A DNA stretch of 64,000 bases from a virus (IMGVR_UViG_642973577_000001:64001-128000); one strand, 5' to 3'. Counted from the stretch's first letter, positions 26,037-33,003 are shown. Program-made: numbers and translations. Notes: generated from the letters alone by a model not told the origin.

Positions 26037-27622
26037 ACCCGAAGCTCAACACCATCGGCATGGGGCTGATGGGCACCGGATGGGTGAGCGCCCAGGCTCT
26101 CATGGACGCACCGCCGCCCGTACTCGATCAGGTCATGGTCGCGGCCTTCGGCGTGTGGTTCACTAGTATGGCTCTGGAGCAGCGGAAGAAGTCTGACGCT
26201 GCCGACCAAACACCCACGGAGGTCCCAGTGGACTGGACTGACTCTGCCGAGCGCCTGCTGGAGCAGCTCGAAGAGGAGAACACCCCCAAGCCGACGTTCT
26301 TCTGCGCGACCGGCGACCACATCGTCGATGAGGTCATCTGGCTGGAGCAGATCGCGCTGGGCTGCAAGCCCTGCATGCTCAAGCTGCGCGACACCCTGAC
26401 CAAGGACCGCGACATCACCATGCGGCTGTGGAAGGGCAACCCCGACGGCACGCTGACCCAGATTCCGGCGGACCCCGAGAAGAAGCCGCTGCCGACCAAG
26501 ACCTCGGCCACCACGCCCGCCAAGACGGCGGCGCGACGTCGTGGGCCGAAGGAGTACATCCGCGAGCACCAGGACTGGACCTGCACCCAGTGCGGTCGCG
26601 GGTTCGATACGGCCCAGGACGGCTTCTACAACACCATGACCGGCTTCGTCTGCAAGCGGTGTGCAGGCACCGCGATCAAGGGCGGCAAGCCGGTGGGTGG
26701 CCTGACCGCACACAAGGCCGAGCAGCGCGTCAAGAGCCGAGTCGCCGACGGTGGTCCGTACACCGTCGACAAGGTGAACGTGGCCGCTGGCGAGGTCGTC
26801 AAGGCCTCCGGTGGCCGCACCTCCATCCGCATCCGGGGCGACGTCGGCCCTGGCGCGCTGGTGAAGGCCTCCGGCGGCAACTGCCGGATCATCATCGACG
26901 GCGACGTCTACCAGAACGCCACCGTCATGGCCTCTGGTGGCTCGGGCGAGATCATCGTCAAGGGCTACATCTACGACTACGCGATCGTGAAGGCCTCAGG
27001 AGGCTCGTGCCGCGTCAACCACCACGGCCATGCCGCCACGGCCCAGGTGAAGGCCTCGGGCGGCTCTGCGACGGTCTCAGACCTCTCCGGCGGTCGCGAC
27101 GAGGACGCCGGTCCCCGCGACTTCACCCGGTACCAGGCTCCTGGCCCGATCGCCACGACCAAGAGGCAGTGGGCCGACGCCGAGAGCTTCGCGAACAACC
27201 GGGGCGACGACCCGCTGACTCGCTACCTGCACGAGATCACCGCACCGTCGATCCAGGACCAGCTCAACGACGTCACCCAGAAGCGGATCAAGCGCAACCA
27301 GGAGATCGCCGAGCGCAACGGCCAGGGCGACTTCATCATCCCCACGTGCGTGGAGTGTGGCCTGCTGGACCCGGAGAATCCGGTGGCTGGCTGGACCAAG
27401 AACCCGCCGGGGTACAAGTGCGCCGTTTGCCTGTCTGGCAGCACCCCGGACCAGGCCAAGCGGAGCTACCGGAAGTGGCGCGTGCAGTCCCGCAAGGACC
27501 TGCCGAAGTCGCCACAGGACCGCGAGACCTACTACGTGATCGACGACAACGAGGTCCTGACCTGGTTCGATGGCACCTGGGTCCGGGTCCTGATCCCGAA
27601 CAGGAACACCGTCGACAAGTAG
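26033..27622 (+). CDS. membrane-anchored protein with zinc fingers and xASGG repeat domain
   Basis: N-terminal hydrophobic segments, several CxxC pairs, five ~21 aa repeats. Confidence 0.75.
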   Translation: MNPKLNTIGMGLMGTGWVSAQALMDAPPPVLDQVMVAAFGVWFTSMALEQRKKSDAADQTPTEVPVDWTDSAERLLEQLEEENTPKPTFFCATGDHIVDEVIWLEQIALGCKPCMLKLRDTLTKDRDITMRLWKGNPDGTLTQIPADPEKKPLPTKTSATTPAKTAARRRGPKEYIREHQDWTCTQCGRGFDTAQDGFYNTMTGFVCKRCAGTAIKGGKPVGGLTAHKAEQRVKSRVADGGPYTVDKVNVAAGEVVKASGGRTSIRIRGDVGPGALVKASGGNCRIIIDGDVYQNATVMASGGSGEIIVKGYIYDYAIVKASGGSCRVNHHGHAATAQVKASGGSATVSDLSGGRDEDAGPRDFTRYQAPGPIATTKRQWADAESFANNRGDDPLTRYLHEITAPSIQDQLNDVTQKRIKRNQEIAERNGQGDFIIPTCVECGLLDPENPVAGWTKNPPGYKCAVCLSGSTPDQAKRSYRKWRVQSRKDLPKSPQDRETYYVIDDNEVLTWFDGTWVRVLIPNRNTVDK

Positions 27623-27655
27623 GGGTTGCACGTCTGACACGGGGTCTGCTACGGT
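27619..27655 (+). promoter_or_regulatory. promoter of tRNA array GTAGGGG-TTGCAC-N18-TACGGT
   Basis: extended -10 TGcTACGGT; same upstream motif as two other promoters. Confidence 0.7.
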
Positions 27656-27662
27656 AGATCCC

Positions 27663-27740
27663 GTGTTTACGATTGCCGATACCACCACGCGAGGGACGCT
27701 CATGCGAGCGGCCTATCGACCGTGGCATATCAAGCACTAG
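27663..27740 (+). CDS. leaderless leader peptide MFTIADTTTRGTLMRAAYRPWHIKH
   Basis: GTG at predicted TSS; in-frame ATG 27702 with GAGGGA SD; atypical codons (3 CGA). Confidence 0.55.
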   Translation: MFTIADTTTRGTLMRAAYRPWHIKH

Positions 27741-27817
27741 TCGTCGCAGCTTTCGAGCCGTGACGACGACCGGCTCGAAGATTCCACACCCGTAGTGGGT
27801 GTTTTCTCCTTGAGCCG
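27740..27817 (+). promoter_or_regulatory. attenuator-like alternative hairpins and terminator
   Basis: 27740-47/27760-67, 27752-60/27771-79 and 27771-78/27810-17 pairings compete; ACACCC-GTAGT-GGGTGT-TTTCT terminator-like. Confidence 0.55.
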
Positions 27818-27831
27818 ACCGGCAGCACAAT

Positions 27832-27903
27832 CGGGATATGGTGTAAGGGTTAGCACGATTGGTTTGGGACCATTCTGACGGGGTTCGAGTCCCTGTTTCC
27901 CGA
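27832..27903 (+). tRNA. tRNA-Pro(TGG)
   Basis: cloverleaf, loop TT-TGG-GA, TTCGAGT T-loop. Confidence 0.85.
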
Positions 27904-27932
27904 CGTACGACAACTGAATAGCACGACCCTAT

Positions 27933-28000
27933 GCAGGTGTGAAGCGGCTTCCCGAAGGATTCCAACCCCTGAGGCGTGGGTTCAACTCCTACCACCTGTG
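27933..28000 (+). tRNA. tRNA-Trp(CCA), miniature D-arm
   Basis: GCAGGTG/CACCTGT acceptor, loop TT-CCA-AC, D-arm GAAG-CGG-CTTC. Confidence 0.7.
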
Positions 28001-28032
28001 CGTAAAGCGTCCAAACCACCTACCATGGTTAG

Positions 28033-28380
28033 ATGGCTTACAAGGACCCGTCAGACCCACGTCTGCTTGAGAAGCGTAGAGCGCATTACTACGCCAACAA
28101 GCAACCGTATCTAGATCGGGCAAAGGCTCAAAGGACAGCGATGTCCGTATGGGCCAGACAACTAAAGAGCGGACCCTGTACTGATTGTGGAGGCACTTTC
28201 CACCATTTTCAGATGGATTGGGATCACATTGGTGACGACAAAGAGTTCGACGTCGGCAAAGCGGTCAGGATAGGGTACGGCAAGAAGCGAATCTTGGCCG
28301 AGATCGCGAAGTGCGAGTTGGTTTGCGCCAACTGCCATCGCCTTCGGACCTGGAGGAGACTTCACCCTGAGGATGAGTAG
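28033..28380 (+). CDS. HNH endonuclease
   Basis: CTDCG..MDWDH..EIAKCELVCANCHRLRT. Confidence 0.88.
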   Translation: MAYKDPSDPRLLEKRRAHYYANKQPYLDRAKAQRTAMSVWARQLKSGPCTDCGGTFHHFQMDWDHIGDDKEFDVGKAVRIGYGKKRILAEIAKCELVCANCHRLRTWRRLHPEDE

Positions 28381-28390
28381 TCCTCGCAAT

Positions 28391-28474
28391 GCCGTGTATG
28401 CCCAACTGGTGTTTGGGAGCAGGCTGTAACCCTGTGGCCTTCGGGACGGCGGAGTTCGATTCTCTGACGCGGCA
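28391..28474 (+). tRNA. tRNA-Tyr(GTA)
   Basis: loop CT-GTA-AC, long variable arm. Confidence 0.88.
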
Positions 28475-28499
28475 CGTTTAATCCCTTGCGGGATTGAAT

Positions 28500-28554
28500 C
28501 GAGCAGAGGTAGCTTCTACCTCAGCTCGTATGAAACTTGAGAACTCCATAGTGT
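28500..28554 (+). promoter_or_regulatory. hairpin followed by rrn boxA-like sequence
   Basis: CGAGC-A-GAGGTAG-CTT-CTACCTC-A-GCTCG hairpin then TTGAGAACTCCATAGTGT. Confidence 0.5.
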
Positions 28555-28613
28555 AGTACTAGAGATCTGGCCAGGCACCATCCTGGCCACAAACCCGGCT
28601 CGTCCGGGTGCGT

Positions 28614-28687
28614 AGCGGGGTAGAGCAGCTCGGTAGCTCGCCAGGCTCATAACCTGGAGGCCGTGGGTTCAAATCCCACTCCCGCCA
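28614..28687 (+). tRNA. tRNA-Met(CAT), initiator-like
   Basis: A1:C72 mismatch, fMet-type D-arm GAGCAGCTCGGTAGCTC. Confidence 0.88.
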
Positions 28688-28690
28688 CTA

Positions 28691-28824
28691 GGTCTCGGGT
28701 CGAGAGAGTCTGTCGGTTATCGCTGGTTCGATTCCTGCCGGGTCCACCCATGGACCCGTCGCTCCATGGCGGAGCACCCAGCTAGCGGCTGGGATTCCGG
28801 CACTCAACACCCATATCCGAGACT
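28691..28824 (+). ncRNA. Y RNA-like (YrlA-type) RNA 1; arm order T-acceptor-D-anticodon
   Basis: 10 bp terminal stem, GGTCGA and GTCGGTTATC/CCGGC motifs enclosing permuted cloverleaf. Confidence 0.75.
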
Positions 28825-28827
28825 TCT

Positions 28828-28900
28828 GGGGATGCATGTTCCTTGGGGGCGACTGATCCTTGCAAGATCGGTGAGGTGGGTTCGATTCCCATCATCTCCA
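28828..28900 (+). tRNA. tRNA-Ala(TGC)
   Basis: G3:U70, loop CT-TGC-AA. Confidence 0.85.
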
Positions 28901-28904
28901 CTTT

Positions 28905-28976
28905 GTGCTGATGGCCGAGATGGTTAGGCACTGGGTTGCAACCCCAGGCACGCAGGTTCGAGTCCTGTTCGGCACT
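28905..28976 (+). tRNA. tRNA-Cys(GCA)
   Basis: loop TT-GCA-AC, U73. Confidence 0.9.
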
Positions 28977-29009
28977 CAAAGCCCCGCTGGAGGCTTCATA
29001 TCCGGCTCT

Positions 29010-29080
29010 GGTCCTATGGGGTAGTGGTAGCCCATCTCCCTCTCACGGAGACGGCCCGAGTTCAATTCTCGGTAGGACTG
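29010..29080 (+). tRNA. tRNA-Glu(CTC)
   Basis: loop CT-CTC-AC, canonical cloverleaf. Confidence 0.9.
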
Positions 29081-29082
29081 CT

Positions 29083-29153
29083 GTGGCCATAGTTCAATGG
29101 CAGAACGCCGGGTTGTGATCCCGGTCGCGAGGGTTCGATTCCCTCTGGTCACC
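29083..29153 (+). tRNA. tRNA-His(GTG)
   Basis: loop TT-GTG-AT, C73; genomic -1 base is T. Confidence 0.9.
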
Positions 29154-29155
29154 CC

Positions 29156-29226
29156 GCGCTCGTGGCATATTGGTTGTGCTCCAGCCTTCCAAGCTGGCTA
29201 AGCAGGTTCGATTCCTGTCGGGCGCT
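29156..29226 (+). tRNA. tRNA-Gly(TCC)
   Basis: loop CT-TCC-AA, U73. Confidence 0.88.
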
Positions 29227-29383
29227 CGCAGTATTCGCAGTATCACCCGCAAGGGGGCGCACCAAGGCTTACCACCTACGCAGGCAGTCGACGGCCTCGA
29301 AACGGTACATGGACCTCCTGGATGTCCTGGGGAGGTGCAACGGGCAAGCCGGAGACTTCACCCGCCGGTCTACAGGGCATCAT

Positions 29384-29456
29384 GGGGCTGTAGCTCAATC
29401 GGTAGAGCGTCTCGCTGGCAGTGAGAAGGCAGTCGGTTCGATCCCGACCAGTTCCA
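29384..29456 (+). tRNA. tRNA-Ala(GGC)
   Basis: G3:U70, loop CT-GGC-AG. Confidence 0.92.
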
Positions 29457-29489
29457 CGTACCGTCTTGAGGCGCGTTAGTCCTCAGCTT

Positions 29490-29561
29490 GCCTTCATAGC
29501 TCAGTTGGTAGAGCGTCGGACTGAAAACCCGGAGGCCGTGGTTCGATTCCACGTGTTGGCA
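29490..29561 (+). tRNA. tRNA-Phe(GAA)
   Basis: loop CT-GAA-AA; two U-U pairs in acceptor. Confidence 0.88.
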
Positions 29562-29565
29562 CAAT

Positions 29566-29633
29566 GCTCCTCTAGTCTGGGACAGAAGTCGGGTCACATC
29601 CGATCGAGCGGGGTTCGATTCCCTGGGGGAGTA
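29566..29633 (+). tRNA. tRNA-Val(CAC), miniature D-arm
   Basis: GTCGG-GTCACAT-CCGAT anticodon arm, normal T-arm, D-arm GTC-TGG-GAC. Confidence 0.65.
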
Positions 29634-29646
29634 CGCAAGATCTAAT

Positions 29647-29720
29647 GGCCCTAGAGCACGGTCTGGTAGTGCTACGGACTCTTAATCCGCAGGTCGTAGG
29701 TTCAAATCCTACTGGGGCCA
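29647..29720 (+). tRNA. tRNA-Lys(CTT)
   Basis: loop CT-CTT-AA. Confidence 0.88.
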
Positions 29721-29731
29721 CTTCACCTTAT

Positions 29732-29804
29732 GCGCTCGTAGCTCAGCTGGTAGAGCTGCTGACTCTTAATCAGCATGTCGGGGGTTCGAGTCCCTCCGGG
29801 CGTA
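29732..29804 (+). tRNA. tRNA-Lys(CTT), second divergent copy
   Basis: loop CT-CTT-AA, canonical. Confidence 0.92.
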
Positions 29805-29818
29805 CGTTAGAATTAGCT

Positions 29819-30124
29819 ATGAGTGCTAATTCTGAGGCCGTGTCTCGTACGCGGCGCAAGCACAAGGCTCTGCTGGTCGCAGAGCACGGTGGCAAGTGTC
29901 TGGACTGCGGGGTCGCTTACCCGCCGTACGTGATGCAGTTCGATCATCGGGACACGACGATGAAGGCCTTCGGCCTGAGCGGCAAGTCCCAAACCTGGTC
30001 ACTCGCCCGGAAACGAGCGGAGGCCGAGAAGTGCGACCTGGTGTGTGCGAATTGCCACGCCATCAGGACGCACAAACAGCGGTGTGGAGGATGCGAACTC
30101 TGCACCAGTGTGCTTGAGGTGTAA
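29819..30124 (+). CDS. HNH endonuclease
   Basis: GGKCLDCG..MQFDH..EAEKCDLVCANCHAIRT; ATG 6 nt after TAGAAT. Confidence 0.85.
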   Translation: MSANSEAVSRTRRKHKALLVAEHGGKCLDCGVAYPPYVMQFDHRDTTMKAFGLSGKSQTWSLARKRAEAEKCDLVCANCHAIRTHKQRCGGCELCTSVLEV

Positions 30125-30182
30125 ATGGTCGCACGACACCTTGCCAAGGTGTAGGAAGCCGGTTCGATCCCGGTCAGGCACT
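30110..30182 (+). tRNA. tRNA-Gly(GCC)
   Basis: loop TT-GCC-AA; overlaps HNH 3' end. Confidence 0.88.
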
Positions 30183-30261
30183 CGTCGCCGTACCGGTTCA
30201 GCCGGTCGCATAGTGAGAAGTGGCAACCTCATCGCTGGCCCAGCGAAACAGGGCACTCGAT

Positions 30262-30336
30262 GGCCTATCGGTCCAGTCTGGAGTGGACACCGCCCTGTCA
30301 CGGCGGAGAGCACGGGTTCAAATCCCGTATAGGTCG
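30262..30336 (+). tRNA. tRNA-Asp(GTC)
   Basis: loop CT-GTC-AC, G73. Confidence 0.9.
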
Positions 30337-30339
30337 CGT

Positions 30340-30414
30340 CGGAGTGTAGCGAGGTTCGATTCCTCGGGGTCCGGGAGAAATCCTTGTCCCGTTGTGTCTG
30401 GCGATGCAGCTCCG
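30340..30414 (+). ncRNA. small T-arm-containing structured RNA (putative)
   Basis: CGGAG/CTCCG closing stem around CGAGG-TTCGATT-CCTCG. Confidence 0.4.
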
Positions 30415-30417
30415 TAT

Positions 30418-30490
30418 GCCTGTGTAGCTCATCTGGCAGAGCGCCCTGCTCATAACGGGGAGGTAAGTGGTTCGAGACCACTCATAGGTA
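30418..30490 (+). tRNA. tRNA-Met(CAT) elongator (or Ile2)
   Basis: loop CT-CAT-AA. Confidence 0.88.
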
Positions 30491-30493
30491 CAA

Positions 30494-30587
30494 GGTGACA
30501 GCGGGACTAGACCCCCGGTGCCCTGCTGCGGCGAAACTTCTGCGCACCGTCTATGCGTGGACCGGTGAAAATCCGGCGCTGTAGCCA
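30494..30587 (+). ncRNA. acceptor/T-loop-like structured RNA (putative)
   Basis: GGTGACAGCG/CGCTGTAGCC stem adjacent to CCGG-TGAAAAT-CCGG hairpin. Confidence 0.4.
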
Positions 30588-30588
30588 A

Positions 30589-30662
30589 GCCTGTTAGCGG
30601 ACTGGTCGTCCGATCCAAGCTGATAACTTGGCGCAAGGAGTGTTCGATTCACTCAGCAGGTA
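30589..30662 (+). tRNA. tRNA-Ile(GAT)
   Basis: CCAAG-CTGATAA-CTTGG anticodon arm. Confidence 0.85.
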
Positions 30663-30663
30663 C

Positions 30664-30803
30664 GTTCGATGGGCCGATGGAATGTCGGTTATCTCCCGCA
30701 GCCAACCTTTGCGGGGTAGCTCAGTTGGTAGAGCGCCACCCTTTAAGGTGGAGGTCGTCGGTTCGAGTCCGATCCCTTTCCGGCTCCGCTCATGCCCATC
30801 AAC
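30664..30803 (+). ncRNA. Y RNA-like RNA 2; arm order acceptor-D-anticodon-T
   Basis: GATGGGC/GCCCATC stem, GGCCGA, GTCGGTTATC/CCGGC; acceptor hairpin with internal G-CCA. Confidence 0.75.
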
Positions 30804-30808
30804 ACAAT

Positions 30809-30881
30809 CTCCCGGTGGTTCAACGGATAGAGCGCCAGACTACGAATCTGGAGAGTGGGGGTTCGATTCCCTCTCGGGAGA
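30809..30881 (+). tRNA. tRNA-Arg(ACG)
   Basis: loop CT-ACG-AA. Confidence 0.9.
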
Positions 30882-30883
30882 CA

Positions 30884-30993
30884 AAGCACGGGCCGATCGG
30901 TCGTCGGTTATCGTTTAACGGAAAAACAATTCACTCATAATGAATCACTCCGGGTTCGAGTCCCGGTTCCGGCTCCATTAAATGCCCGTGTTT
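30884..30993 (+). ncRNA. Y RNA-like RNA 3; D-anticodon(CAT)-T with Y stem as acceptor
   Basis: AAGCACGGGC/GCCCGTGTTT stem, GGCCGA, GTCGGTTATC/CCGGC-TCCA. Confidence 0.7.
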
Positions 30994-30997
30994 CAAT

Positions 30998-31068
30998 GCT
31001 GGATTAGCATAGTGGTAGTGCCCTTCCTTGGTATGGAAGTAGCCGGGGTTCGATTCCCCGATTCAGCT
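30998..31068 (+). tRNA. tRNA-Thr(GGT)
   Basis: loop TT-GGT-AT. Confidence 0.9.
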
Positions 31069-31074
31069 CGCAAT

Positions 31075-31146
31075 GCTCTTGTAGCTCAGTGGTAGAGCAC
31101 CAGCCCGACATGCTGGTTGTCCGAGGTTCGATTCCTCGTTGGAGCA
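31075..31146 (+). tRNA. tRNA-Val(GAC)
   Basis: loop CC-GAC-AT (C33). Confidence 0.85.
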
Positions 31147-31149
31147 CGT

Positions 31150-31284
31150 TGGATGGGTCGACCGCAGGTCGGTTATCTCCTGTCAAGAGGGTGGTCGCGG
31201 GTTCGATTCCCGTCGTCGTTCCTGGAACGGCGTAGCTCAGTGGTAGAGCACCAAAAACACCGGCAGCATCCCCATATCCATCCA
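31150..31284 (+). ncRNA. Y RNA-like RNA 4 (closest to classic YrlA); arm order anticodon-T-acceptor-D
   Basis: TGGATGGGT/ATCCATCCA stem, GGTCGA, GTCGGTTATC/CCGGC; canonical T and D arms flanking closed acceptor hairpin. Confidence 0.8.
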
Positions 31285-31325
31285 TCACCTAGCTCCAGGT
31301 CGCCCTCCGGGACTGGCCTGGCTTT

Positions 31326-31396
31326 GCCTCCATCGTTCAGTGGTAGGACGCCTGCCTTGTAAGCAGGCTGCGGGCGTTCGATTCGTCCTGGAGGCT
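31326..31396 (+). tRNA. tRNA-Thr(TGT)
   Basis: loop CT-TGT-AA. Confidence 0.9.
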
Positions 31397-31402
31397 CTCT
31401 AT

Positions 31403-31476
31403 GGTTCGGTGGTCTGCTGGCTGTGCCACTCAGGTTTTCACCCTGGGATACGCGGGTTCGATTCCCGTCCGAACTA
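31403..31476 (+). tRNA. tRNA-Glu(TTC)
   Basis: loop TT-TTC-AC; weak D stem. Confidence 0.8.
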
Positions 31477-31560
31477 CGGTGGGGGAGGCAGCAGTCGAGA
31501 GCTGTCCCGTTCGGGGCTACCAAGCACCCGGCGGTGGGCGCAGGCACTCCCCCTCCCAGT

Positions 31561-31633
31561 GCTGGTGAAGCGTGAACGGTTTACGCACGGCCCTCGTAAC
31601 GCCGAGAAGTCGGTTCGACTCCGACCTCCAGCT
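31561..31633 (+). tRNA. tRNA-Thr(CGT)
   Basis: loop CT-CGT-AA. Confidence 0.85.
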
Positions 31634-31697
31634 CCCTGGCTTGGGATGGCAGGCCGATCTGTACCGTGTCGGCGGGCAATACCGACACCATCCCTCT

Positions 31698-31767
31698 ACC
31701 CTCGCCAGCGGACCTGGCGTGAGGCCTCCGACGCCACACTGCGGGAGTTCGACTCTCTCCGGGGGTG
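31698..31767 (+). tRNA. tRNA-Arg(CCG), atypical D-arm
   Basis: ACCCTCG/CGGGGGT acceptor, loop CT-CCG-AC, T-loop TTCGACT. Confidence 0.65.
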
Positions 31768-31796
31768 CTTTCCGGCACAGGGGGTACACTCTCCTT

Positions 31797-32198
31797 GTGA
31801 CGACTCAAGCACGACGCGATTACATGCGCGAGTACCAGCGCAAGTGGAAGGCCCAGCGCCGTGCTGACTACTTCGCCGACAAGGCCTGCGTACGGTGCGG
31901 GTCCACCGAGAACCTCCGGCTCGATCACATCGACCCGGCCAAGAAGGTGGACCACAAGATCTGGACGTGGAGCCAGGAACGCCGCGAGGCCGAGCTGGAA
32001 AAGTGCCAGGTGCTCTGTCAGCCCTGTCACGACGCGAAGACCGCCGAGGACATGGGGTGGAAGCTCTGCGGCACCAAGCGGGCCTACAACAACGGCTGCC
32101 GCGAGGCACCGTGCAGGCTCGCGAACACCGAACACAGGCGCAAGATGCGCGCCCAGAAGGCCGCTGTAGCTCATGCGGACAGAGCGACCGTTTCCTAA
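31797..32198 (+). CDS. HNH endonuclease
   Basis: CVRCGSTENLRLDHIDP..KCQVLCQPCHDAKT; GTG 7 nt after TACACT. Confidence 0.88.
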   Translation: MTTQARRDYMREYQRKWKAQRRADYFADKACVRCGSTENLRLDHIDPAKKVDHKIWTWSQERREAELEKCQVLCQPCHDAKTAEDMGWKLCGTKRAYNNGCREAPCRLANTEHRRKMRAQKAAVAHADRATVS

Positions 32199-32233
32199 AC
32201 GGTAGGCAGGGGGTTCGAGTCCTCCCAGCGGTG
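32160..32233 (+). tRNA. tRNA-Arg(CCT)
   Basis: loop TT-CCT-AA; contains the HNH stop codon. Confidence 0.9.
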
Positions 32234-32266
32234 CTTGGATCTGGTACTACACTGTGGCGTTCCCAT

Positions 32267-32339
32267 TGAGGTGTGGTCTGCTGGCAGGCCAGCGGGCCTT
32301 TGACCCCCGCCTCCGTAGGTTCGATTCCTGCCACCTCAG
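32267..32339 (+). tRNA. tRNA-Gln(TTG)
   Basis: U1:A72, G73, loop CT-TTG-AC. Confidence 0.8.
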
Positions 32340-32340
32340 C

Positions 32341-32416
32341 GCCTCTGTAGCTCAGTGGATAGAGCACCGAGTTTCTACCTCGGGTGCCGGGAGTTCGATC
32401 CTCTCCAGGGGCACCA
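32341..32416 (+). tRNA. tRNA-Arg(TCT)
   Basis: loop TT-TCT-AC, encoded CCA. Confidence 0.92.
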
Positions 32417-32418
32417 TG

Positions 32419-32491
32419 GGGGCGTTGGTGAACGCGGCTATCACTCTTGGCTTTTACCCTTGAATACCGGGATCGAGACCCGGACGCCCCA
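32419..32491 (+). tRNA. tRNA-Lys(TTT)
   Basis: loop CT-TTT-AC, weak anticodon stem, ATCGAGA T-loop. Confidence 0.7.
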
Positions 32492-32492
32492 C

Positions 32493-32825
32493 TCAATAAC
32501 CGAGGCGGTCCGCGCCCGCGTGGGTGATGTAGCAGACCATGCGAGCCTTGCCCGTCCGCCCGGTCCGCCGCGTCTCATTGCCGTTGCGCTCGATCTGCCC
32601 CAGAGCGCGTAGGTCTCCGGCGCGGCGTCGGTAGCCGTCCTCCACCAGATCGAAGCCGCATGCCTCCATGGCCTCCTCGTCGGTTAGACCGGCGGGGTAG
32701 GCGTCAGCGTAGGCCTGCAGCAGCGCGACCTGAATGCTCTCGCGCCGCTGGCGCTCCGGCACCGCGTCATGCGACGTCTCGGGGTCGCTCGTCCTCACGA
32801 ACTCGTTGCCTGCTGGTGTGGTCAC
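32493..32825 (-). CDS. winged-helix DNA-binding protein (putative)
   Basis: RTSDPETSHDA..GLTDEEA..RRRAGDL motif; AGGAAGG SD. Confidence 0.7.
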   Translation of the reverse strand: MTTPAGNEFVRTSDPETSHDAVPERQRRESIQVALLQAYADAYPAGLTDEEAMEACGFDLVEDGYRRRAGDLRALGQIERNGNETRRTGRTGKARMVCYITHAGADRLGY

Positions 32826-33003
32826 TCGGGACCCCTTCCTGTGGGTGGGTGTGACCGGCCTTGAGACCGGCCTTGTCGCAGTGCTTGCCGCACGGCAGGC
32901 AGTGGGGGTTCTCGCCCCAGCTGCCGAAGTAGTGGCGGCTGGTGATGCCGCTCAGATCGTACCCGCATCGCTCGCAGGTGATTATTCGCCGAACAGTACC
33001 CAT
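32767..33003 (-). CDS. small zinc-finger protein (putative)
   Basis: MGTVRRIITCERCG..CLPCGKHC; GGAGGT SD; overlaps neighbours. Confidence 0.45.
   Translation of the reverse strand: MGTVRRIITCERCGYDLSGITSRHYFGSWGENPHCLPCGKHCDKAGLKAGHTHPQEGVPSDHTSRQRVREDERPRDVA

What the first reader, a model, noticed from the sequence alone, without database searches (positions are those of the whole stretch)
28691..31284. Four Y-RNA-like genes, each a different circular permutation of the tRNA cloverleaf
Seen: four elements (28691, 30664, 30884, 31150) share terminal stem + GGYCGA + 6-8 nt + GTCGGTTATC ... CCGGC + short linker ending AT + terminal stem, with covarying stems. The enclosed domains are T-Acc-D-AC, Acc-D-AC-T, D-AC-T (stem replaces acceptor) and AC-T-Acc-D, so the cloverleaf is entered at a different point each time. 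Established: bacterial YrlA RNAs join a Ro60-binding stem to a T-Acc-D tRNA mimic, and some mycobacteriophages encode Ro. Inference: a panel of Ro-tethered tRNA mimics displaying different faces and anticodon loops, acting as decoys for anticodon nucleases or adaptors for RNA repair/decay. I do not know of such a permutation set being described. No Ro gene lies in this window.
Basis: partly seen in the sequence, partly recalled or inferred. Interest (0 to 1): 0.93.

Follow-up and report, generated by a model that had tools for sequence, protein, structure and literature searches.

The report
Phage Y RNAs hidden among tRNAs
A large mycobacteriophage hides four small RNA genes in its tRNA cluster; each joins the stem typical of Ro60-binding "Y RNAs" to a tRNA look-alike, and two join it in ways I did not find described for this RNA family.

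Summary
The four elements are real. Each has a terminal stem, G-N-CGA, an exact GTCGGTTATC, a closing CCGGC helix and a linker ending AT. The window is bases 64001-128000 of a 164,602-bp Myrna-like mycobacteriophage. That genome encodes a true Ro60 3.3 kb beyond the window end, with two more copies of the scaffold just upstream of it.

The scaffold matches the published YrlA design (GNCGAA motif, YUAY; Chen 2014). It also matches the Ro-adjacent YrlA-type RNA of Bxz1-type phages.

- E4 and E1 are ordinary YrlA-type modules (T arm, closed acceptor, D arm). Their supposed "anticodon arms" are a variable arm (E4) and a hairpin specific to this phage (E1).
- E3 has the order D-anticodon-T, as Deinococcus Yrn1 was modelled.
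- E2 is a complete cloverleaf permuted at the T/acceptor junction. It has an encoded G-CCA and a 6-nt anticodon loop.

Homologs in Phabba and ScoobyDoobyDoo keep the folds with compensatory changes. There are no expression or Ro-binding data.

Verdict: a new variant of a known kind. This scan had already noted the E2 type in another Myrna-like genome (e1-5669618, e1-5669633).

The parts
28690..28826 (+). E1: Y-RNA-like gene of YrlA type (T arm, closed acceptor, D-like arm) plus an extra hairpin specific to this phage
   Evidence: MFE helices: terminal stem 28691-28700/28815-28824; scaffold helix 28712-28716/28797-28801; T arm 28722-28738; closed acceptor 28739-28758; D-like arm 28761-28775; extra hairpin 28777-28793. 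Rfam YrlA gives a partial match at 28715-28778, 27 bits. It starts 1-2 nt after tRNA-Met (ends 28688) and ends 1-3 nt before tRNA-Ala (starts 28828). Homologs follow the same tRNA in Phabba, ScoobyDoobyDoo and Yassified.
30664..30805 (+). E2: Y-RNA-like gene carrying a complete cloverleaf permuted at the T-stem/acceptor junction
   Evidence: MFE helices: terminal stem 30664-30674/30794-30803; scaffold helix 30684-30688/30780-30784; closed acceptor 30694-30701/30709-30716, with G-CCA directly after the 3' strand; D arm 30719-30734; anticodon arm 30736-30751 with a 6-nt loop; T arm 30757-30773. Rfam tRNA matches 30714-30776, 46.7 bits, model positions 5-66 only. ARAGORN calls a full tRNA on the rotated sequence. 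RNAalifold on 3 phages: 41 pairs, 4 compensatory.
30884..30993 (+). E3: Y-RNA-like gene in which the scaffold helix takes the place of the acceptor stem (D, anticodon arm CAT, T)
   Evidence: Terminal stem 30884-30893/30984-30993; scaffold helix 30903-30907/30969-30973; T arm 30950-30966. Anticodon arm 30929-30945 (centroid fold and consensus). Rfam tRNA matches 30910-30967, 39.4 bits, model positions 7-64. ARAGORN calls 'tRNA-Met' at 30903-30977. RNAalifold on 3 phages: 29 pairs, 6 compensatory. The D arm is present only in this phage.
31150..31284 (+). E4: canonical YrlA-type Y RNA (V hairpin, T arm, closed acceptor, D arm)
   Evidence: Terminal stem 31150-31158/31276-31284; scaffold helix 31168-31173/31259-31264; V hairpin 31175-31195; T arm 31197-31213; acceptor 31214-31232; D arm 31235-31249. 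Best Rfam YrlA match in the genome: 31190-31252, 40.3 bits, model positions 24-84. About 75% identical over query bases 21-102 to the Ro-adjacent RNA of Bixzunavirus (Bxz1-type) phages (Bxz1 itself 85% over bases 21-67).
28712..28721 (+). Shared decamer GTCGGTTATC of E1 (scaffold helix 5' strand plus the YUAY of the YrlA scheme)
   Evidence: Exact match. YUAY is named as a conserved YrlA feature in Chen 2014.
30684..30693 (+). Shared decamer of E2
   Evidence: Exact match.
30903..30912 (+). Shared decamer of E3
   Evidence: Exact match.
31168..31177 (+). Shared decamer of E4
   Evidence: Exact match.

Best explanation
E1-E4 are four paralogous phage Y RNA genes of the YrlA kind. Each has a Ro60-binding module and an effector module.

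The Ro60-binding module is a terminal stem that ends in a G-rich helix, followed by CGA opposite a conserved AU, and then a second helix (GUCGG with CCGGC). The effector module is a tRNA look-alike.

They lie in tRNA-sized slots of the phage tRNA array. Most likely (inferred) they are made from the same long transcript and cut out by the enzymes that trim the neighbouring tRNAs. The phage's own Ro60 then binds them, together with the two further copies encoded directly upstream of the Ro60 gene.

The scaffold is joined to the tRNA body at three different points:
- in place of the anticodon arm (E1, E4; the published YrlA design);
- in place of the acceptor stem (E3; as Yrn1 of Deinococcus was modelled);
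- at the T-stem/acceptor junction of an otherwise complete cloverleaf (E2).

By analogy with M. smegmatis YrlA (inferred), the closed acceptor loops that encode N-CCA are opened by RNase P and end in CCA. For E2 this would give a two-piece, whole-tRNA-shaped RNA tethered to Ro60. Its short or variable anticodon loop argues that it does not decode.

The likely role (inferred, weakest step) is to present tRNA shapes to tRNA-binding host or phage factors. Candidates are tethering Ro60 to PNPase or other partners, gating Ro60, or competing with tRNA-cleaving nucleases.
For: Shown in sequence:
- The scaffold occurs at 4 sites in the window, and at 5 forward, 0 reverse and 0 control sites in the whole genome.
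- A sixth copy with a CGG variant and a canonical copy (V, T, acceptor with ACCA, D) lie directly upstream of the Ro60 ORF.
- The Ro60 ORF scores TROVE E=2e-47 and vWA_Ro60 E=2.2e-41, and matches PDB 2nvo (Rsr) at E=6e-89.
- Phabba, ScoobyDoobyDoo and Yassified also encode TROVE proteins, 3 of 3 searched.
- The same scaffold precedes Ro (gp220) three times in Bxz1.
- E4 is about 75% identical to that Ro-adjacent RNA in Bixzunavirus (Bxz1-type) phages.

Published YrlA features (Chen 2014, sections read):
- GNCGAAN0-1G resembles the vertebrate GGUCCGA contacted by Ro60.
- YUAY begins the V loop, followed by V, T, acceptor and D arms.
- M. smegmatis YrlA is cut by RNase P and receives CCA.

Folds:
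- MFE folds recover the scaffold and arms in all four elements.
- The 16 distinct terminal-stem sequences among the 19 parsed copies kept (of 20; the mis-parsed Phabba E4 row dropped) all pair 7 of 7, against a mean of 4.73 for non-cognate combinations. This is partly by construction, because I required at least 7 pairs.
- E2: 41 consensus pairs, 4 compensatory. E3: 29 pairs, 6 compensatory.
- E1 acceptor hairpins are 7-8 bp with four different sequences in four phages.
- Rotated E2 is a full cloverleaf with a 7-bp acceptor, G and CCA. The linear acceptor reading has 2 mismatches and 2 G-U. Forbidding the upstream strand to pair costs 6.5 kcal/mol.

Context:
- Each element starts 0-2 nt after a tRNA, and three end 1-5 nt before the next tRNA.
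- Array-embedded copies of the same scaffold are kept in 202 and 200 Bixzunavirus records.
- The phage encodes a PolyA_pol/CCA-type nucleotidyltransferase.
- A phage Ro60 binding two phage Y-like RNAs and host PNPase in vitro is published for Thermus phage phiLo (PMC12135203, passages).
Against: - I have no expression, end-mapping or Ro-binding data for any of the four.
- Rfam YrlA stays below its gathering score of 69: E4 40.3 bits, E1 27 bits, both partial, and no match at E2 or E3. The same model also gives only 32.5 bits for the Ro-adjacent Bxz1 RNA.
- No Rfam Y_RNA match is listed at E<=10.
- The sixth base of the GNCGAA motif is G, T, T and C in E1-E4, not A.
- The elements lie 36-39 kb from Ro60, whereas published YrlA genes were nearly all within 4 kb of it.
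- Folding z-scores are weak for E3 (-1.90) and E4 (-0.94) and do not distinguish the strands.
- Only three Myrnavirus genomes carry E2 and E3, so compensatory counts are small and relatedness is not controlled.
- E3 is unstable. Its D arm exists only here, Phabba has an extra hairpin after the T arm, and ScoobyDoobyDoo has a different anticodon-like loop.
- E4 is missing from the ScoobyDoobyDoo array.
- In ScoobyDoobyDoo the CCA of E2 does not directly follow the acceptor strand.
Confidence: 0.75

Rival explanations
1. E2 and E3 are working tRNA genes, and the Y-like flanks are only an unusual precursor or processing structure. E2 would be a suppressor or Ser tRNA and E3 an elongator Met tRNA. 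Alternatively E2 is a permuted tRNA gene that is matured into a normal tRNA.
For: - Public records annotate the E2 homologs as tRNA-Ser (Phabba) and tRNA-Sup(cta) (ScoobyDoobyDoo).
- ARAGORN calls tRNAs inside both elements.
- Rfam tRNA scores are 46.7 and 39.4 bits, above its threshold of 29.
- E3 is followed by T-CCA and E2 encodes G-CCA.
- Wang et al. [quoted passage not shown]
Against: - The Rfam tRNA matches are local (model positions 5-66 and 7-64) and leave out the acceptor stem.
- The linear acceptor of E2 has 2 mismatches and 2 G-U. The scaffold helix of E3, read as an acceptor stem, has two U-U.
- The E2 anticodon loops are 6, 7 and 6 nt long and all different in the three phages, while the stem covaries.
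- E3 loses its D arm in both relatives, and Phabba's annotators did not call it a tRNA.
- No RtcB ligase gene is present to rejoin a permuted tRNA.
- The flanks are the same scaffold as the Ro-adjacent RNAs.
Confidence: 0.08
2. The array copies are by-products of recombination between Y RNA genes and neighbouring tRNA genes (shared T and D arm sequences), drifting without a function of their own.
For: - The architecture varies between close relatives: the extra hairpin of E1 is only here, the D arm of E3 is only here, Phabba's E3 has an added hairpin, and E4 is absent from the ScoobyDoobyDoo array.
- The T and D arm sequences of E4 are identical (17 of 17) to those of array tRNAs.
- All three topologies can be read as different stretches cut out of a tandem tRNA repeat (my inference).
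Against: - E1, E2 and E3 keep their slot after the same tRNA in three genomes that are only about 81-84% identical there.
- Stems keep pairing through changes on both sides.
- The E2 body is at most 50 of 66 identical to any array tRNA, so it is not a recent copy.
- The corresponding array copies in Bixzunavirus are kept in 202 and 200 records.
Confidence: 0.12
3. The shared stem is not a Ro60 site but a general processing or stabilising module of the tRNA-operon transcript, for example a nuclease entry or protection site.
For: - The elements abut tRNAs within 0-5 nt.
- No sigma-70-like promoter was found in 27000-33000, against a mean of 1.3 in shuffles.
- They lie far from Ro60.
Against: - The same module occurs two or three times directly upstream of Ro60 in all five genomes examined.
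- It carries the motifs published for Ro60 recognition.
Confidence: 0.05

Closest known systems
YrlA RNAs of bacteria and mycobacteriophages (Chen et al. 2014, PMC4201824; Rfam RF02553; structure in Wang et al. 2018, bioRxiv 10.1101/312249)
   Same: - A 5' G-N-CGA motif, YUAY, and a stem formed by the two RNA ends.
- A tRNA-like module with T arm, closed acceptor stem and D arm (E1, E4 and the Ro-adjacent copy).
- A partner Ro60 gene in the same genome on the same strand.
- 7-bp acceptor stems with N-CCA in the loop, as in M. smegmatis YrlA, which RNase P cuts.
   Different: - The four copies lie inside the tRNA array, 36-39 kb from Ro60.
- The sixth motif base is not A.
- E2 and E3 carry an anticodon-type arm, which YrlA lacks.
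- In E2 and E3 the scaffold joins the tRNA body at other points.
- The Rfam score threshold is not reached.
Yrn1 of Deinococcus radiodurans (as modelled in Chen et al. 2014)
   Same: - The tRNA-like features are in the order D-like, anticodon-like arm, T arm, with the Ro60 stem formed by the RNA ends, as in E3.
- The anticodon-like loop has 6 nt instead of 7, as in E2 of this phage.
   Different: Yrn1 has no full D arm and belongs to another sequence lineage. Here the same scaffold carries both the YrlA and the Yrn1 orientations in one genome.
Yrl1 and Yrl2 of Thermus phage phiLo with phage Ro60 (PMC12135203)
   Same: Phage-encoded Ro60 with several Y-like RNAs that have a 5'-3' stem and an internal bulge with a CGAA motif. 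Binding to phage Ro60 and to host PNPase was shown in vitro.
   Different: Those RNAs lie upstream of Ro60. The passages I read do not describe tRNA-like modules in them.
Circularly permuted tRNA genes (Cyanidioschyzon merolae; Soma et al. 2007, as cited in bioRxiv 10.1101/312249) and two-piece tmRNA genes (recalled, not checked here)
   Same: The 3' acceptor strand (with CCA in E2) is encoded upstream of the 5' strand, so the acceptor stem is first a closed loop.
   Different: In permuted tRNA genes the ends are spliced and ligated to give a working tRNA. Here the ends form a Y-RNA stem, no RtcB is present, and the anticodon loop of E2 is irregular.

Membership tests
YrlA / bacterial Y RNA (Chen 2014; RF02553) | 5' motif GNCGAAN0-1G | tested here: inconclusive
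   The GNCGA core is present in 4 of 4 elements. The full motif is present in 0 of 4, because the sixth base is G, T, T and C. The full motif is met in the Ro-adjacent copy and in the E1 homologs of Phabba and ScoobyDoobyDoo. The Ro-adjacent Bxz1 RNA that E4 matches also has G at the sixth base.
YrlA / bacterial Y RNA (Chen 2014; RF02553) | Conserved YUAY at the start of the V region | tested here: met
   UUAU lies within the exact decamer GTCGGTTATC in 4 of 4 elements. The feature is named.
YrlA / bacterial Y RNA (Chen 2014; RF02553) | tRNA-like module in the order (V) - T arm - closed acceptor stem - D arm, without an anticodon loop | tested here: inconclusive
   Met in E1 and E4 (partial Rfam matches to model positions 24-84). 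Not met in E2 (acceptor, D, anticodon arm, T) or in E3 (D, anticodon arm, T).
YrlA / bacterial Y RNA (Chen 2014; RF02553) | Rfam gathering score (69 bits) | tested here: not met
   E4 40.3 bits, E1 27 bits, none at E2 or E3. The model also fails on the Ro-adjacent Bxz1 RNA (32.5 bits) and on the own Ro-adjacent copy (no match), so it does not cover this phage lineage.
YrlA / bacterial Y RNA (Chen 2014; RF02553) | Encoded within about 4 kb of Ro60 on the same strand | tested here: not met
   E1-E4 lie at genome positions 92.7-95.3 kb and the Ro60 ORF starts at 131,306, on the same strand. Two other copies of the scaffold do lie within 300 nt of it.
YrlA / bacterial Y RNA (Chen 2014; RF02553) | Bound by Ro60/Rsr | not testable with these tools
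   This needs immunoprecipitation or gel shifts.
tRNA (RF00005) | Contiguous cloverleaf with an acceptor stem formed by the two ends, and a 7-nt anticodon loop | tested here: not met
   The Rfam tRNA matches are local (model positions 5-66 and 7-64). The linear acceptor of E2 has 2 mismatches and 2 G-U, and its loop has 6 nt. The acceptor reading of E3 has two U-U, and its D arm is lost in relatives.
Circularly permuted tRNA genes that mature to working tRNAs | Ends removed and ligated (splicing endonuclease motif, RNA ligase) to give a normal tRNA | tested here: inconclusive
   The permuted order is met for E2. No RtcB is present in the phage. I did not test for a bulge-helix-bulge motif. The ends form the Y scaffold instead.

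The most novel reading that the evidence does not exclude
The phage fields a panel of Ro60-tethered tRNA mimics that show different faces of the tRNA. One of them (E2), after RNase P nicking, is a whole tRNA body with a CCA end on a Ro60 handle. The panel serves as bait or competitive inhibitor for host tRNA-cleaving defence nucleases, or delivers them or damaged tRNAs to a Ro60-exonuclease machine. The fast-changing anticodon loops of E2 would be the trace of that conflict.
Probability: 0.2. Interest if true: 0.85.

Novelty: new variant of a known kind. Interest (0 to 1): 0.62.

Why it matters
Y RNAs with a tRNA-like domain are known, but the function of that domain is an open question in the Ro60 field.

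Here one phage carries six paralogs on one common handle, with the tRNA body attached at three different points. One paralog has all four arms.

This acts as a natural swap experiment. The paralogs can be deleted one by one in a phage that grows on a laboratory mycobacterium. [quoted passage not shown]

The finding also corrects annotation. Public records call the E2 homologs tRNA-Ser or a suppressor tRNA. In all 16 rows shown of the 202 and 200 Bixzunavirus records that carry the array copies t1 and t2, nothing is annotated under the match.

Tried and rejected
- Chance motif: rejected by strand bias and the backwards-read control.
- Protein-coding: only mechanical ORFs run across the tRNA genes, so I did not pursue this.
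- Rfam at gathering thresholds gives only tRNAs. At E<=10 there is no Y_RNA match.
- Expression: no RNA holder is listed.
- The four runs I laid are contigs, and the 'RNA?' run is flagged as probably DNA. They show that relatives exist in wastewater samples and in one 164-kb assembly. They say nothing about transcripts or RNA ends.
- The RNAalifold run on the E1 group failed because MAFFT misaligned the 3' halves. I used single folds instead.
- Two IMG/VR scans for the 5' motif returned 235 loci. After filtering for a terminal stem of at least 8 bp, 43 sites remained, most of them chance. None was a Myrna-like array copy.
- An E2-specific 17-mer found only the Phabba copy among 123 loci from IMG/VR and metagenomes.
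- A single-protein search for Ro60 loci in IMG/VR found only Phabba. Whether E2-type RNAs exist beside other Ro60 genes is therefore untested.
- Literature searches for a prior description found none of array-embedded or anticodon-arm-bearing phage Y RNAs.
- The reviews PMC10870794 and PMC6047535 are not held.

Full report
**What the window is**

The window is bases 64001-128000 of a 164,602-bp virus record. The region of the finding is a dense tRNA array. ARAGORN finds 29 tRNA-like genes between 27832 and 32492, and Rfam gives 26 tRNA matches there.

The nearest public genomes are Mycobacterium phages Phabba and ScoobyDoobyDoo (genus Myrnavirus). More distant relatives are about 200 Bixzunavirus phages such as Bxz1.

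**The observation**

The decamer GTCGGTTATC occurs exactly four times, all on the + strand, at 28712, 30684, 30903 and 31168. Each copy is preceded by G-N-CGA.

In single-sequence folds each copy sits in the same frame:
- a 9-10 bp terminal stem;
- an internal loop;
- a 5-6 bp helix (GTCGG with CCGGC) that closes a multi-branch junction.

The pattern GNCGAN{4,10}TCGRTTMYC gives 5 forward, 0 reverse and 0 control matches in the whole genome. In five related genomes it gives 29 forward, 0 reverse and 0 control matches. By my reading 4 of these are T-arm look-alikes and 2 are overlapping duplicates, which leaves 23 sites.

A script that parsed 20 copies found that the linker ends in AT just before the 3' stem strand in 18 of them. 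Of the two exceptions, one (Phabba's E4) was mis-parsed and the other (the Ro-adjacent copy) was read in another register.

The terminal stems differ between paralogs: there are 16 distinct sequences among the 19 copies kept, with the mis-parsed row dropped. All pair, whereas non-cognate combinations average 4.73 of 7. I had selected for at least 7 pairs, so this is only partly independent.

Folding z-scores are modest (-3.27, -3.12, -1.90, -0.94) and the reverse strands fold about as well. The case therefore rests on motifs, strand bias and comparison, not on folding energy.

**Ro60 and further copies**

The genome has one 3.3 kb beyond the window end:
- a 553-aa ORF with TROVE (E=2e-47) and the Ro60 vWA domain (E=2.2e-41);
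- E=6e-89 to Deinococcus Rsr (2nvo) and E=1.8e-88 to Xenopus Ro60 (1yvp).

Directly upstream of it lie two more copies of the scaffold:
- a short one with a CGG variant of the motif;
- a canonical one with V hairpin, T arm, 7-bp acceptor stem with ACCA in its loop, and a D-like arm.

Phabba has the same pair. ScoobyDoobyDoo has three copies before its Ro60. Bxz1 and Yassified have three between gp219 and Ro gp220. All three relatives searched encode TROVE proteins.

**What it is**

Chen et al. 2014 (sections 5, 6, 8 and 10 read) define YrlA RNAs as follows:
- a 5' GNCGAAN0-1G motif resembling the vertebrate GGUCCGA contacted by Ro60;
- a conserved YUAY;
- V, T, acceptor and D stem-loops.

They report such RNAs in 22 phages including mycobacteriophage ET08. 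They also show that M. smegmatis YrlA, which has a 7-bp acceptor stem, is cut by RNase P and ends in CCA.

The four elements carry GNCGA and UUAU. E4 is about 75% identical over 82 nt to the Ro-adjacent RNA of Bixzunavirus (Bxz1-type) phages. E4 also gives the best Rfam YrlA match in the genome, 40.3 bits to model positions 24-84. This is below the threshold of 69, but the Bxz1 RNA reaches only 32.5 bits.

So the scaffold is the YrlA and Y RNA handle, and the elements are paralogs of the Ro-adjacent RNAs.

**The tRNA modules**

- **E4** (V hairpin, T, closed acceptor, D) is the ordinary YrlA order. That is the V-arm position of the YrlA scheme.
- **E1** is T, closed acceptor, D-like arm, plus a 7-bp hairpin with a 3-nt loop. 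The hairpin is absent from the homologs in Phabba, ScoobyDoobyDoo and Yassified. The acceptor hairpins of the four E1 homologs are 7-8 bp with four different sequences.
- **E3** has D, an anticodon arm with a canonical CAT loop, and a T arm, with the scaffold helix in place of the acceptor stem. This is the order in which Chen et al. modelled Deinococcus Yrn1. Only the anticodon-type arm and the T arm are shared by the three phages, and the T stem covaries (29 consensus pairs, 6 compensatory).
- **E2** is the unusual one. The 3' acceptor strand with G-CCA comes first, followed by a short linker, the 5' strand, a textbook D arm, an anticodon arm, a variable loop and a T arm. The scaffold leaves at the T-stem/acceptor junction.

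For E2, a script that rotated the sequence obtained a complete ARAGORN cloverleaf with a 7-bp acceptor. The linear reading used by annotators has 2 mismatches and 2 G-U, and blocking the upstream strand costs 6.5 kcal/mol.

Across the three phages, 41 pairs are predicted for E2 and 4 have compensatory changes, including one in the anticodon stem.

The E2 anticodon loops are 6, 7 and 6 nt long and all different. Public records consequently call the homologs tRNA-Ser and tRNA-Sup. This argues against decoding.

The E2 body is at most 50 of 66 identical to any tRNA of the array, so it is not a recent copy.

Full-length E2 homologs occur in 3 of 50,697 phage records; two are the same Phabba genome under two accessions, the third ScoobyDoobyDoo. 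E3 homologs found by BLAST occur in 2 records, both Phabba.

**How it probably works**

Shown:
- The elements fill tRNA-sized slots. They start 0-2 nt after a tRNA, and three of the four end 1-5 nt before the next.
- E1, E2 and E3 keep their slot after the same tRNA in all three Myrnavirus genomes.
- Related array copies t1 and t2 are kept in 202 and 200 Bixzunavirus records, with nothing annotated under the match in all 16 rows shown.
- No sigma-70-like promoter was found in 27000-33000.

Inferred:
- The elements are co-transcribed with the tRNAs and released by the tRNA-end processing enzymes.
- They are bound by phage Ro60 through the shared handle.
- The acceptor loops that encode N-CCA are opened by RNase P, as in M. 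smegmatis YrlA. These loops are found in E2, the Ro-adjacent copy, Phabba's E1 and the Bixzunavirus t1.
- The phage also encodes a PolyA_pol/CCA-type nucleotidyltransferase and no RtcB.

The purpose of the tRNA shapes is open. Published possibilities for YrlA include:
- tethering to PNPase, and gating of Ro60;
- binding of an unknown factor that recognises the tRNA elbow (bioRxiv 10.1101/312249, passages);
- competitive inhibition of an anticodon nuclease (PMC7790460, passages).

A phage Ro60 that binds phage Y-like RNAs and host PNPase in vitro is reported for Thermus phage phiLo (PMC12135203, passages).

**Origin (my inference)**

All three topologies can be read as different stretches cut from a tandem repeat of one tRNA:
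- T to D across a junction (E1, E4);
- 3' acceptor strand to T across a junction (E2);
- D to T within one copy (E3).

This fits their location in a tRNA array and the idea that Y RNAs derive from tRNAs.

**Novelty**

Already known:
- YrlA RNAs are circularly permuted tRNA mimics.
- Mycobacteriophages encode them beside Ro60.
- Yrn1 has the opposite orientation.

What I did not find in the papers searched:
- Y RNA paralogs embedded in a phage tRNA array;
- three attachment points on one handle in one genome;
- a Y RNA carrying a complete cloverleaf with an anticodon arm.

The supplements of Chen 2014 and two reviews could not be seen.

Earlier notes of this scan reached the same reading of the E2 type in another Myrna-like genome (e1-5669618, e1-5669633). 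They also describe a similar set in a 424-kb phage (e1-5713129, not checked by me). These are leads, not independent evidence.

**Verdict**

'Four different permutations' is overstated, and the function is untested. This is a new variant of a known kind, of good but not exceptional interest.

Noticed in passing
window 30338-30417: The 80-nt spacer between tRNA-Asp and tRNA-Met contains a T-arm-like stretch (GGTTCGATTCC flanked by complementary bases). No tool called a tRNA or a scaffold copy there.
   Followed up: no
window 27933-28000: Borderline Rfam tRNA match (29.1 bits against a threshold of 29) that ARAGORN did not call. Phabba annotates a tRNA-Trp between tRNA-Pro and tRNA-Tyr, the same slot (ScoobyDoobyDoo has Trp before Pro).
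   Followed up: no
window 31636-32159: A 524-nt stretch without any tRNA call inside the array. ARAGORN found no tmRNA in the window, although Phabba and Yassified annotate a tmRNA in their arrays.
   Followed up: no
window about 29820-30124: A small ORF inside the tRNA array. The corresponding Phabba gene is annotated as an HNH endonuclease.
   Followed up: no
L005:5981-6099 and L005:7105-7213 (Yassified), with the same sites in Bxz1: Bixzunavirus phages carry two array-embedded copies of the same scaffold. One is T arm, closed acceptor with CCA, D-like arm. The other is hairpin, T arm, hairpin. They are present in 202 and 200 phage records, with no annotation under the match in all 16 rows shown.
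   Followed up: partly
L006:3885-3959 and L006:4154-4237 (Bxz1), and own genome 131019-131096: Short copies of the scaffold without a tRNA-like module (75-84 nt) flank the YrlA-type RNA upstream of Ro60, much like YrlB of M. smegmatis.
   Followed up: partly
L163:3238-3314, L040:3022-3105, L248:621-721, L224:1370-about 1480 (IMG/VR contigs): Unrelated uncultured viral contigs carry small stem-enclosed elements with the same G-N-CGA ... GTCGGTTATC 5' motif. One of them (L224) has a T arm. The handle therefore seems widespread in phages.
   Followed up: no
own genome 11882-12250 (outside the window): A 400-aa ORF with a PolyA_pol-family (CCA-adding type) nucleotidyltransferase domain, E=3.1e-33.
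   Followed up: no
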